DNA of 64,000 nucleotides from Clostridia bacterium. Its GTDB lineage: Bacteria; Bacillota; Clostridia; UMGS1883. The notes beneath the pieces were generated by a model that worked only from the letters and a program-made list of their open reading frames with translations, made no database searches and was not told the DNA's origin. Positions 38,753 through 39,034 of this stretch are shown here, piece after piece. Position numbers and translations under genes: made by a program. Where the stretch lies: the NCBI GenBank assembly GCA_030527235.1, contig JAUNBL010000001.1:10294-74293 (forward strand), given 5' to 3'. Numbering within the stretch: position 1 is the first letter of the stretch; the number at the start of each line of letters is the position of its first letter.

Positions 38753-39034
38753 CGTATAATTAAAACCATCTCGAAAGGGGTGGTTTTAATTATTTCTCCT
38801 TTCCTGAAATTTGTTATATTTGCAGGATTAGCTACCTGCGGTATAATAAAGACAAGCACTGTGGATTTGTATCTATTTTATTACAGCTTTGACTGGTTAG
38901 AGGTGACTCAAACCACAGTGGTTTGTCTAAAATGGTAATTAGTTAGTTAACGCTTTGACGTTTTTATTTGCGTGAATACATTGGCAAGCCGTCTGTGGAA
39001 AACAGCAGTGCAAAAATATTAAAAGGAGGAAACC
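38753..39034 (+). ncRNA. Candidate bridge (seek) RNA in the IS110 left end
   Basis: Long non-coding LE upstream of the recombinase gene, as in the IS110 subgroup. A long-range stem pairs CACTGTGG(A)TTTG (38857-38869) with CAAACCACAGTG (38909-38920). The enclosed loop contains a 10-mer complementary to the right IS/flank junction. Confidence 0.5.

What the first reader, a model, noticed from the sequence alone, without database searches (positions are those of the whole stretch)
38753..39034. Candidate bridge/seek RNA in the IS110 left end, with guide-like matches to its own junctions
The transposase (39035-40198) is a clear IS110-family DEDD recombinase. A 282-nt non-coding left end precedes it, which is where IS110-subgroup elements encode the bridge RNA that specifies both donor and target.
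- A long-range stem pairs CACTGTGG(A)TTTG (38857-38869) with CAAACCACAGTG (38909-38920) and encloses a loop of about 39 nt.
- That loop contains AGAGGTGACT (38899-38908). This is the exact reverse complement of the right IS/flank junction AGTCACCTCT (40316-40325). I estimate the chance of a given 10-mer on either strand of 280 nt at about 5 in 10,000.
- Same-sense copies of both IS termini also occur in the LE. GTATAAT (38840-38846) matches the left terminus at 38754-38760. TAGTTAGT (38940-38947) matches the right terminus at 40311-40318. This is what donor guides would look like.
- A terminator-like hairpin (38762-38787) lies near the 5' end.
Basis: partly seen in the sequence, partly recalled or inferred. 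Interest (0 to 1): 0.7.

Follow-up and report, generated by a model that had tools for sequence, protein, structure and literature searches.

The report
IS110 bridge RNA aimed at ribosome-binding sites
The non-coding left end of this insertion sequence encodes an ordinary IS110-type bridge RNA that steers insertion between the ribosome-binding site and start codon of host genes. This copy is unusual only because it sits between two 125-bp copies of its target.

Summary
The insertion sequence (IS) spans 38753-40318, has a CA core on each side, and encodes an IS110-family RNA-guided transposase.

Its left end (LE) carries a roughly 158-nt bridge RNA at 38854-39011, made of two stem / internal-loop / hairpin modules. 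The helices are supported by compensatory changes across 54 distinct relatives.

The loop nucleotides follow bridge-RNA guide logic:
- The right target guide AGAGGTG covaries with the right flank over 7 positions.
- The donor guides covary with the IS ends.
- The core predicted from each of the two 3' guides equals the observed core in 45 of 45 elements (CA, CT or TA).

TAGTTAGT is the left donor guide. GTATAAT is only a -10 box, not a guide.

The family inserts between the Shine-Dalgarno sequence and the ATG of minus-strand genes.

Eight empty-site contigs show that the repeat is a derived target duplication. The right junction is canonical. The left junction lies 122 bp away at an unmatched CA. 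None of about 77 related loci has such a repeat.

Verdict: a new member of a known kind, with modest interest.

The parts
38753..40318 (+). IS110-family insertion sequence (1566 bp). LE is 38753-39034, the transposase gene is 39035-40198, RE is 40199-40318.
   Evidence: Homology to about 50 related loci begins at 38753 and ends at 40318.
38751..38752 (.). Core dinucleotide CA on the left side of the IS.
   Evidence: Left flanks of relatives end in CA in nearly all loci. The core predicted by the RTG and by the RDG is CA.
40319..40320 (.). Core dinucleotide CA on the right side of the IS, followed by the right target CCTCT.
38854..39011 (+). Bridge RNA gene. The 5' end is predicted from the promoter. 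The 3' end is taken as the end of sequence conservation.
   Evidence: Covariance model R1 scores it at 193.6 bits and it is the only hit in the window. Every one of the 80 metagenome loci found by transposase similarity gave an RNA match upstream of the transposase gene; one was cut off by a contig end.
38857..38869 (+). 5' arm of the outer stem of the target-binding module (CACTGTGG-A-TTTG). It pairs with 38909-38920.
   Evidence: In one search, pairs 9:63 (UA to CG in 8 sequences) and 14:59 (UA to CG in 10 sequences) are compensatory, and the core is 100% paired.
38909..38920 (+). 3' arm of the outer stem of the target-binding module (CAAACCACAGTG).
38875..38883 (+). Left target guide (LTG), ATTTTAT+TA, same sense as the left target plus core. 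The register is the best-supported one but is not certain.
   Evidence: Loop-to-left-flank covariation forms a diagonal at offset +4/+5 with z up to 5.4 over 94 pairs. Locus L116, which has the same loop, has the flank ATTTTAT-CA.
38884..38895 (+). Inner hairpin of the target-binding loop (CAG-CTTTGA-CTG).
   Evidence: 100% paired, and 2 of 3 pairs have double changes.
38899..38905 (+). Right target guide (RTG), AGAGGTG, complementary to the top strand CA+CCTCT (40319-40325, also 38629-38635).
   Evidence: Right-flank positions 2-7 covary with the loop (z 5.5-9.2 over 102 pairs; position 1 is invariant) and positions 8-10 do not.
38906..38908 (+). Handshake guide of the target-binding loop, AC(T), complementary to the last bases of RE, (A)GT at 40316-40318.
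   Evidence: The position is analogous to IS621 nucleotides 81-82. It is nearly invariant in the family, as is the RE end.
38921..38927 (+). 5' arm of the outer stem of the donor-binding module (GTTTGTC). It pairs with 38983-38989.
   Evidence: 4 of 7 pairs carry compensatory changes.
38940..38947 (+). Left donor guide (LDG), TAGTTAGT, same sense as the RE end at 40311-40318.
   Evidence: The guide and the RE end change together: AGTTAGT, AGTTTGT, AGTAAGT and AGTTGG(T/G).
38949..38962 (+). Inner hairpin of the donor-binding loop (AACG-CTTTGA-CGTT).
   Evidence: 100% paired, and 2 of 4 pairs have double changes.
38965..38976 (+). Right donor guide region. TATTTG is followed by CGTG (38971-74), which is complementary to CA+CG at the LE start, and then by the handshake guide AA (38975-76).
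   Evidence: CGTG goes with CA+CG, CGAG with CT+CG, ACAAG with CT+TGT, and CGTA with TA+CG. The TATTTGC motif is shared with IS621.
38983..38989 (+). 3' arm of the outer stem of the donor-binding module (GGCAAGC).
38819..38847 (+). LE-internal sigma-70-like promoter, TTTGCA-17-TATAAT.
   Evidence: It is the best promoter-like site in the region at 10 of 12. TATAAT is nearly invariant in 35 LEs.
38755..38760 (+). -10 hexamer (TATAAT) of the promoter that would form across the RE-CA-LE junction of a circularised element.
   Evidence: Read directly from the sequence: TTGACT + 13 nt + CA + CG + TATAAT gives a 17-bp spacer. IS621 and distant relatives have the same geometry.
40300..40305 (+). -35 hexamer (TTGACT) of the junction promoter, in RE.
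38756..38793 (+). Conserved hairpin at the IS left terminus, terminator-like, overlapping the junction -10 box.
   Evidence: Compensatory variants occur in L003, L010, L006 and L030, and hairpins of different sequence occupy the same place in distant relatives.
38628..38752 (.). Left copy of the 125-bp direct repeat. It holds the duplicated 3' end of the DUF4428 gene plus the Shine-Dalgarno sequence of the SLH/LRR gene. The canonical target T1 (CATTTACTT-CA-CCTCT) lies at 38620-38635.
   Evidence: 100% identity. Empty alleles carry one copy.
40318..40442 (.). Right copy of the 125-bp direct repeat, part of the intact DUF4428 gene at 40333-41085(-).

Best explanation
The 282-nt left end encodes a roughly 158-nt IS110-type bridge RNA (38854-39011).

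Transcription (inferred). The RNA is probably transcribed from an LE-internal promoter. After circularisation it could also be transcribed from a promoter rebuilt across the RE-CA-LE junction.

Architecture (shown by comparison). The RNA has two similar modules.
- Module 1, the target-binding loop, carries a weakly specifying left target guide (ATTTTAT+TA). It also carries a strongly specifying 7-nt right target guide (AGAGGTG). That guide pairs with the top strand CA-CCTCT, which is the antisense of a host Shine-Dalgarno sequence. A handshake guide (AC) follows and pairs with the RE end after strand exchange.
- Module 2, the donor-binding loop, carries a left donor guide (TAGTTAGT, identical to the RE end). 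It also carries a right donor guide (CGTG, preceded by TATTTG) that pairs with CA-CG at the LE start.

Reaction (inferred from IS621 and CazIS110-1). Bound to the DEDD/serine transposase, the RNA would bring together the circular RE-CA-LE donor and a target of the form CAT-N4-7-CA-CCTC. It would direct exchange at the CA core. The IS therefore lands between the ribosome-binding site and the start codon of a gene on the opposite strand.

This copy (shown for the structure, inferred for the route). The RE junction is exactly what the guides specify. The LE is joined to an unmatched CA 122 bp further into the upstream gene, so 124-125 bp of target is duplicated. The two ends were most likely joined to different CA positions, either by uncoupled or half-match end transfer or by an unequal exchange between sister chromosomes. 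The rearrangement may have been kept because it gives the SLH/LRR gene back its own ribosome-binding site.

Not shown here: RNA expression, transposase binding, recombination activity, and the route to the duplication.

The confidence given applies to the bridge-RNA identification and guide assignments. The route to the duplication is much less certain (see the novel case).
For: Element and protein:
- The IS boundaries and the CA core are defined by about 50 relatives.
- The transposase hits PF01548, PF02371 and NF033542, and matches the solved IS621 and ISCro4 structures by sequence. D7 and S307 align with IS621 D11 and S241. E57, D100 and D103 match IS621 E60, D102 and D105 at motif level.
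- The LE is more conserved at nucleotide level (83-96%) than the transposase is at protein level (66-90%).

Structure:
- 95.6% of cells are paired, against 28-44% when partners are slid.
- 11 pairs carry compensatory changes, against 5.2 in shuffles (0 of 500 reach the observed value).

Guides:
- The core predicted from the RTG equals the core predicted from the RDG and the observed core in 45 of 45 elements: CA in 41, CT in 3, TA in 1.
- The RTG covaries with the right flank at positions 2-7 (z 5.5-9.2; position 1 is invariant) and not at positions 8-10. Examples are CACTCC with GGAGTG, CATCTCC with GGAGATG, CACCCCC with GGGGGTG and CTCCTTT with AAAGGAG.
- The LDG tracks four variants of the RE end.
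- The LTG covaries with the left flank, with z up to 5.4.

Covariance model built here:
- It hits the window once, at 193.6 bits.
- It finds two held-out distant relatives.
- It gives an RNA match in each of the 80 loci retrieved by transposase similarity alone, one of them cut off by a contig end.

Comparison with IS621:
- The junction geometry is the same (-35, 13 nt, core, 2 nt, -10) and the RDG motif TATTTGC is shared.
- Guide definitions follow Durrant 2024 and Hiraizumi 2024.

The duplication:
- The repeat is perfect over 125 bp.
- Eight empty-site contigs carry a single copy and align without gaps over 410 of 410 positions.
- An independent Logan contig has the same two junctions.
- Half-match recombination and separate transfer of the two ends are reported.
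Against: - No expression or activity data exist for this element.
- Rfam 15 has no matching family. The model built here does not detect the IS621 bridge RNA, so homology to the type example rests on architecture and guide logic, not on a shared model.
- An alternative long-range pairing is equally compatible with the alignment: GCACUG 38856-61 with CAGUGC 39006-11, plus CCACAG with CUGUGG.
- The LTG register is ambiguous. In this copy the LTG matches the canonical left target at only 3 of 7 positions, and it does not match the actual left flank.
- The handshake positions never vary, so they carry no covariation evidence.
- The duplication is a single case: none in about 77 other loci. Its route cannot be told from sequence.
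- A short-read assembly graph of an empty chromosome plus an IS+X circle would look the same as the observed layout.
Confidence: 0.9

Rival explanations
1. The LE is only a 5' untranslated or regulatory region (promoter, terminator, translational control). On this view the matches to the junctions are chance or reflect promoter consensus.
For: - GTATAAT is a common -10-like word, found 16 times in the window.
- The 5' 100 nt of the LE look regulatory. They hold a terminator-like hairpin and a CT-rich stretch complementary to the transposase ribosome-binding site.
- The single-sequence fold is only modestly better than shuffles, z = -1.98.
Against: - Loop nucleotides covary with flanking host DNA and with the IS ends in dozens of independent elements. 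The core changes in a coordinated way across two guides. A purely cis-regulatory leader does not predict this.
- The helices carry compensatory changes.
Confidence: 0.03
2. The functional RNA is a short target-loop-only seekRNA of about 68 nt (38854-38921), not a full two-loop bridge RNA. The donor-loop region would serve another role.
For: Short target-loop RNAs are the most abundant species for CazIS110-1 and are sufficient for some IS1111/IS110 elements.
Against: - The second module shows its own covariation with the RE end and with the LE start and core.
- Its stems also covary.
- In CazIS110-1, full transposition needs the full-length RNA.
Confidence: 0.07
3. The 125-bp flanking repeat is an assembly artefact or reflects a mixed population. 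For example, an empty chromosome plus a 1.69-kb IS+X circle or tandem array would collapse to the same assembly graph.
For: - The graph A to X, X to IS, IS to X, X to B is identical for both situations.
- The Logan contig stops exactly k-1 bases into X on both sides.
- Empty alleles are common in metagenomes.
Against: - The IS has no other junctions in the window or in the Logan contig, so it would have to exist only as a circle that has no replication function.
- De Bruijn assemblers cannot invent the junction GACGCA|CGTATAAT.
Confidence: 0.1
4. A 123-bp tandem duplication of X arose first, independently of the IS. The IS then inserted normally into the new junction GACG-CA-CCTCT, which carries a perfect right-target half-site.
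For: - The new junction would have a 7 of 7 RTG match.
- Natural insertions in this family often have poor left-target matches.
Against: - One endpoint of the duplication coincides exactly with the core of the canonical target T1, which is unlikely for an unrelated duplication.
- None of the 8 empty alleles carries a duplicated X.
- T1 itself would still have been available.
Confidence: 0.1

Closest known systems
IS621 (E. coli) and its 177-nt bridge RNA (Durrant et al. 2024, PMC11208160; Hiraizumi et al. 2024, PMC11208158)
   Same: - The LE encodes the RNA upstream of a DEDD/Ser transposase.
- The RNA has two stem / internal-loop / hairpin modules, with a same-sense guide on the 5' side and a complementary guide on the 3' side. 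The 3' guides (RTG and RDG) demonstrably include the core.
- Handshake positions sit 3' of the core-binding bases.
- The junction promoter geometry is identical (-35, 13 nt, core, 2 nt, -10).
- The RDG motif TATTTGC is shared.
   Different: - The transposases are only 24% identical, and the family covariance model does not cross-detect the IS621 RNA.
- The core is CA, not CT.
- The RTG is 7 nt, not 4.
- There is no 5' stem-loop before the target module.
- About 100 nt of extra LE precede the RNA, with a terminator-like hairpin and an internal promoter.
- The target is a ribosome-binding site, not a REP element.
CazIS110-1 of Caloranaerobacter azorensis (Sun et al. 2025 preprint, 10.1101/2025.10.25.684509)
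   Same: - It is an IS110-group element from a Clostridia host with a bridge RNA of about 170 nt that has target- and donor-binding loops.
- The LT-RD and LD-RT junctions can be transferred separately, which gives a route to ends joined at different sites.
   Different: No long target duplications are described in the sections read.
IS900 / IS901 / IS902 / IS116 / IS1110 group of the IS110 family (my own knowledge: target CATG-N4-6-CNCCTT, between RBS and ATG; the IS900 'hed' ORF is mentioned in PMC8141618)
   Same: Insertion is orientation-specific and falls between the ribosome-binding site and the start codon of a host gene on the opposite strand.
   Different: - The hosts are Actinobacteria with high-GC elements.
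- This IS has no long ORF on its complementary strand.
- The link between that target and a Shine-Dalgarno-like RTG was not found in the searchable literature.
Half-match recombination and expanded IS110 loci (Xie et al. 2026, 10.64898/2026.08.31.748434; Hu et al. 2026, 10.64898/2026.08.14.744561)
   Same: - Recombination can use only one matching half-site.
- Some boundaries retain a single canonical donor match.
- Here, several relatives sit at RD-like sites (CACGT...). This copy's left junction keeps RD with an unmatched partner.
   Different: Those studies describe partial circles, cargo growth and tandem IS or LE repeats. They do not describe a single IS bracketed by a 125-bp duplication of host target.

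Membership tests
IS110 family (IS110 subgroup) insertion sequence | DEDD (RuvC-like) N-terminal domain plus a C-terminal Tnp domain with a catalytic serine | tested here: met
   PF01548 at 1e-37 and PF02371 at 4.5e-21. NF033542 at 224 bits against a cutoff of 140. D7 and S307 align with IS621 D11 and S241. E57, D100 and D103 match IS621 E60, D102 and D105 at motif level.
IS110 family (IS110 subgroup) insertion sequence | Long non-coding left end upstream of the transposase gene, short right end, no long terminal inverted repeats | tested here: met
   LE is 282 nt and RE is 120 nt. No terminal inverted repeat was reported between the two ends.
IS110 family (IS110 subgroup) insertion sequence | Promoter reconstituted across the RE-core-LE junction of the circular form | tested here: met
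   Met by sequence only. TTGACT (40300-05) + 13 nt + CA + CG + TATAAT (38755-60) gives a 17-bp spacer. IS621 and distant relatives have the same geometry. No circle junction was observed.
IS110 family (IS110 subgroup) insertion sequence | Simple insertion flanked by the 2-bp core on both sides at one contiguous target | tested here: not met
   CA is present on both sides, but the two flanks are not contiguous. They overlap by 124-125 bp relative to the empty allele. Relatives do show simple insertions. This concerns this copy's insertion event, not the element's family.
Bridge RNA (IS110-type) | Two internal loops, each closed by an outer stem and an inner hairpin | tested here: met
   30 pairs, 95.6% paired, 11 with compensatory change. 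An alternative closing helix is also compatible.
Bridge RNA (IS110-type) | 3' side of loop 1 (RTG) is complementary to the top strand of core plus right target | tested here: met
   7 of 7 in this copy. The family covaries at positions 2-7, z 5.5-9.2.
Bridge RNA (IS110-type) | 5' side of loop 1 (LTG) is the same sense as left target plus core | tested here: inconclusive
   There is a family-level diagonal with z up to 5.4, and L116 has a perfect cognate. The register is blurred (+4/+5). This copy matches its canonical left target at 3 of 7 positions, and the actual left flank at 1 of 5 covarying positions.
Bridge RNA (IS110-type) | 5' side of loop 2 (LDG) is the same sense as the RE end | tested here: met
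   TAGTTAGT equals the last 8 nt of RE. The two co-vary through AGTTTGT, AGTAAGT and AGTTGG(T/G).
Bridge RNA (IS110-type) | 3' side of loop 2 (RDG) is complementary to core plus LE start, with core-binding bases matching those of the RTG | tested here: met
   The core from the RTG, the core from the RDG and the observed core agree in 45 of 45 elements, covering CA, CT and TA. ACAAG goes with CT+TGT in L075.
Bridge RNA (IS110-type) | Handshake guides 3' of the core-binding bases pair with the non-cognate DNA after strand exchange | tested here: inconclusive
   AC(T) is complementary to the RE end (A)GT. AA is complementary to TT of the canonical left target. Both positions are nearly invariant, so they give no covariation.
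Bridge RNA (IS110-type) | Detected by a covariance model of known bridge RNAs | not testable with these tools
   Rfam 15 has no such family. The published IS621-seeded model is not available. The reverse test, this family's model against IS621, was negative.
Bridge RNA (IS110-type) | The RNA is expressed, binds the recombinase and is required for recombination | not testable with these tools
   Needs RNA-seq, binding and recombination assays.

The most novel reading that the evidence does not exclude
The 124-125-bp target duplication may be a natural footprint of uncoupled, RNA-guided joining of the two IS ends. The RE would have been joined to the RTG-matched site. The LE would have been joined to an unmatched CA 122 bp away, by direct transfer or half-match recombination.

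If so, bridge recombinases can generate long, variable target duplications in vivo. Selection could keep such products when they restore the ribosome-binding site that a canonical insertion would have cut off from its gene.
Probability: 0.3. Interest if true: 0.6.

Novelty: new member of a known kind. Interest (0 to 1): 0.35.

Why it matters
It confirms that bridge-RNA guide logic can be read directly from a single genome window. It also documents a very abundant family of such elements in gut Clostridia.

Three features would interest people who engineer bridge recombinases:
- The family has a naturally long, 7-nt right target guide that mimics a Shine-Dalgarno sequence.
- Left-target recognition is naturally loose.
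- The core has been reprogrammed in nature (CA, CT, TA) with matched changes in both 3' guides.

Biologically, each insertion cuts a gene off from its ribosome-binding site, so the family acts as an orientation-specific translational knock-out agent.

The single copy with a 125-bp target duplication is a concrete natural case to test against the recent half-match and direct-transfer models.

Tried and rejected
- **Rfam.** Scans at gathering and at permissive thresholds found no bridge-RNA family. The only hits in the LE were chance-level.
- **Cross-detection of IS621.** The family model was searched against the IS621 locus with filters off. Nothing scored above 2.4 bits, so cross-family detection failed.
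- **GTATAAT as a donor guide.** Rejected. It lies outside both loops, upstream of the RNA, is a -10 consensus, and is common in the window.
- **Left target guide as TTTATTACA (38877-85).** This matches the canonical left target at 7 of 9 positions and is attractive for this copy. The family covariation, however, puts the register 2-3 nt upstream. It is kept only as an alternative.
- **Long flanking repeats in relatives.** None in about 77 loci.
- **The unmatched left site as a half-site.** GACG-CA-TTGC was checked for resemblance to each of the four half-sites (LT, RT, LD, RD) and none was found, by direct reading.
- **A 'hed'-like ORF on the complementary strand, as in IS900.** None is present.
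- **Other copies of the exact transposase.** Only one 1.6-kb Logan contig was found, and it has the same junctions.
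Full report
**Observation**

The one exception is GTATAAT, which lies at 38841-38847, one base to the right.

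The ORF 39035-40198 is an IS110-family transposase:
- It hits PF01548 at 1e-37 and PF02371 at 4.5e-21.
- It hits NCBIfam NF033542, 'IS110 family RNA-guided transposase', at 224 bits against a cutoff of 140.
- Its only sequence matches among solved structures are the ISCro4 and IS621 transposases.
- D7 and S307 align with IS621 D11 and S241. E57, D100 and D103 match IS621 E60, D102 and D105 at motif level.

AGAGGTGACT occurs only twice in the 64-kb window, once in the loop and once as its reverse complement at the right junction. Shuffles give an expectation of 0.03.

**Ends of the element and its target**

I collected relatives from three sources:
- 80 loci from species-representative genomes;
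- 10 copies of one 88%-identical transposase;
- 80 metagenome loci.

Homology to the window starts exactly at 38753 (CGTATAAT...) and stops exactly at 40318 (...TAGTTAGT). Almost every copy has CA immediately to the left and CA immediately to the right, so CA is the core.

The flanks show a clear target. On the left is ...(T)TCAT-N4-7-CA. On the right is CA-CCTC.... Read on the other strand, this is GAGGTG, a spacer and ATG. The family therefore inserts between the Shine-Dalgarno sequence and the start codon of a gene lying on the opposite strand to the transposase.

From my own knowledge, this target type is long known for the IS900/IS901/IS116 group. A full-text search found no paper that connects it to a bridge-RNA guide.

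**The RNA**

The LE is better conserved at nucleotide level (83-96%) than the transposase is at protein level (66-90%). Its 3' 175 nt stay about 80% identical even where the transposase is only 53% identical.

I aligned 54 distinct sequences of the region 38854-39012 and counted pairs for a two-module structure:
It has compensatory UA-to-CG changes at two pairs, in 8 and 10 sequences.
- A 3-bp inner hairpin lies at 38884-95.
- Outer stem 2 is 38921-27 with 38983-89. Four of its seven pairs have double changes.
- A 4-bp inner hairpin lies at 38949-62.
- A small 3' hairpin follows.

Overall 95.6% of cells pair, against 28-44% when partners are slid by 1-3 columns. Eleven pairs carry compensatory changes, against 5.2 in shuffles (0 of 500 shuffles reach the observed value).

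RNAalifold prefers a variant in which GCACUG (38856-61) pairs with CAGUGC (39006-11) and CCACAG pairs with CUGUGG. That variant is equally compatible with the alignment but rests on invariant columns. The two may be alternative conformations.

A covariance model built from the alignment gave these results:
- It hits the window once, at 193.6 bits.
- It finds two distant relatives left out of training, at 98.7 and 76.9 bits.
- It gives an RNA match in each of the 80 metagenome loci that had been retrieved by protein similarity alone; one match was cut off by a contig end.
- It does not find the IS621 bridge RNA.
- Rfam 15 has no relevant family.

**Guide logic**

I used the definitions of Durrant et al. 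and Hiraizumi et al.. [quoted passage not shown] The 3' side is complementary to the core plus the right half-site. Handshake bases follow the core-binding bases.

*Right target guide.* The 3' side of loop 1 ends ...AGAGGTG-ACT.
- Across 102 distinct loop/flank pairs, right-flank positions 2-7 track the loop (z 5.5-9.2). Position 1 is invariant, and positions 8-10 show no signal. The guide is therefore 7 nt.
- Independent variants make the point: CACTCC with GGAGTG in three lineages, CATCTCC with GGAGATG, CACCCCC with GGGGGTG, and CTCCTTT with AAAGGAG. Two loci match at 10 of 10 positions.

*Right donor guide.* The 3' side of loop 2 reads TATTTG-CGTG-AA.
- CGTG pairs with CA+CG at the LE start.
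- It becomes CGAG in CT-core elements, CGTA in a TA-core element, and ACAAG where the LE starts CT-TGT.
- The core deduced from the right target guide, the core deduced from the right donor guide and the core seen in the flanks agree in 45 of 45 elements (41 CA, 3 CT, 1 TA).

*Left donor guide.* The 5' side of loop 2 contains TAGTTAGT, identical to the last 8 nt of RE. It changes together with the RE end through AGTTTGT, AGTAAGT and AGTTGG(T/G).

*Left target guide.* The 5' side of loop 1 holds the only hypervariable stretch of the RNA.
- It covaries with the left flank along a diagonal, with z up to 5.4 over 94 pairs, but the register is blurred.
- One locus with the same loop as the window sits at ATTTTAT-CA, a perfect cognate of ATTTTAT+TA at 38875-83.
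- Most natural sites match this guide only partly, so targeting in this family is dominated by the right (Shine-Dalgarno) half.

- The 10-mer is the 7-nt right target guide plus the handshake guide. The handshake guide pairs with the end of RE after strand exchange, which is exactly why the 10-mer matches the RE/flank junction.
- TAGTTAGT is the left donor guide.
- GTATAAT is not a guide. It is the -10 box of the best promoter-like site in the region, TTTGCA-17-TATAAT at 38819-47. That site places a start close to 38854.

**Comparison with IS621**

The IS621 bridge RNA, which I recalled from memory, matched E. coli genomes at 100% identity, directly upstream of annotated IS621 transposase genes.
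- IS621 shares the same junction geometry: a -35 hexamer in RE, 13 nt, the core, 2 nt, then a -10 hexamer in LE.
- It shares the motif TATTTGC ahead of the core-binding bases of the right donor guide.
- The proteins are only 24% identical.

**What is unusual in this copy**

A perfect 125-bp direct repeat, 38628-38752 = 40318-40442, brackets the IS. It consists of the 3' end of the DUF4428 gene (40333-41085, minus strand) plus the Shine-Dalgarno region of the SLH/LRR gene (37438-38622, minus strand).

Eight metagenome contigs carry the same two genes with one copy of this segment and no IS. A reconstructed empty site aligns to them without gaps at 97.8-100% identity. The repeat is therefore a derived duplication of the target.

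The canonical target T1, CATTTACTT-CA-CCTCT, lies at 38620-38635.
- The right junction (RE-CA-CCTCT) is exactly what the guides specify.
- The LE is joined to GACG-CA, 122 bp further into the DUF4428 gene. I found no resemblance between that site and any of the four half-sites.

An independent 1.6-kb Logan contig has the same two junctions and no alternative ones. No other locus of about 77 tested has repeats in its flanks.

T1 itself is a right-half-only match: 7 of 7 on the right and 3 of 7 on the left.

**Likely origin of the duplication (inference)**

Every route I could construct needs one non-canonical exchange at the distal CA. The candidates are:
- The two ends were transferred separately to two different CA positions. 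Separate LT-RD and LD-RT transfer is reported for CazIS110-1.
- An unequal exchange took place between the LE junction on one chromosome copy and the distal CA on another.
- An RD-only 'half-match' circle carrying IS+X formed and was reintegrated by homology. Half-match recombination and one-sided boundaries are reported.

Several relatives sit at right-donor-like sites (CACGT...), which shows that half-match events do happen in this family.

A canonical insertion would separate the SLH/LRR gene from its ribosome-binding site, and the duplication restores it. That offers a reason for the rare product to persist.

An assembly-graph artefact (an empty chromosome plus an IS+X circle) cannot be excluded from sequence alone. 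It would, however, leave the IS with no chromosomal junction.

**Verdict**

The finding is correct and well supported. What it describes is a standard IS110-type bridge RNA in a large family from gut Clostridia. It is a new member of a known kind.

The points of interest are:
- a Shine-Dalgarno-mimicking 7-nt right target guide;
- natural coordinated reprogramming of the core;
- the single long target duplication.

Noticed in passing
window 38793-38802 and 39022-39031: A conserved CT-rich stretch, TTTCTCCTTT, lies just after the LE hairpin. It is complementary (9 Watson-Crick pairs plus 1 G-U) to the transposase ribosome-binding site AAAGGAGGAA. It would be present only in transcripts that start upstream of the internal promoter, so it could control translation. 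Its role is unexplained.
   Followed up: partly
window 38756-38793: The terminator-like hairpin overlaps the -10 box of the junction promoter. A transcript starting from that promoter would lack the 5' arm of the hairpin, while read-through from host genes would contain the whole hairpin. It may therefore insulate the IS from outside transcription. Distant relatives have hairpins of different sequence at the same place.
   Followed up: partly
window 38822-38839: An inverted repeat, GCAGG...CCTGC, lies inside the spacer of the internal promoter. It is conserved, and a distant clade replaces it with a different complementary pair (CAAAGG...CCTTTG). Function unknown.
   Followed up: no
L054, L034, L049 (right flanks): Some relatives are inserted next to CACGTATT, CACGCTG or CACGTTG. 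These resemble the element's own right-donor half-site (CA-CGTATAAT) and not the usual CACCTC target. This is consistent with donor-type half-match insertion.
   Followed up: partly
L082-L091 (copies of transposase P0040): The same left flank appears with different right flanks, and the reverse also occurs. For example, Carb_kinase is paired with ACPS in some copies and with HTH_5/DUF2087 in another. This suggests either recombination between IS copies or chimeric metagenome assemblies at the repeat.
   Followed up: no
L092 1781-1930 (E. coli IS621 locus): The first 72 nt or so of the IS621 left end are tandemly duplicated. The second copy starts right after the RNA's own left target guide (ATCGGGCCT), as if the guide-encoding DNA had served as a target.
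   Followed up: no
window 24894-24990 (-): The only Rfam match in the window above the gathering score is pemK RNA (RF02913, 62.5 bits). It is unrelated to the IS.
   Followed up: no
L007, L089, L109 (left flanks): A few copies have CT, not CA, immediately left of the IS, while the right side of L007 and L089 is CA (L109's right side was not examined). This is possibly the result of insertion at a site with a mismatched core.
   Followed up: no
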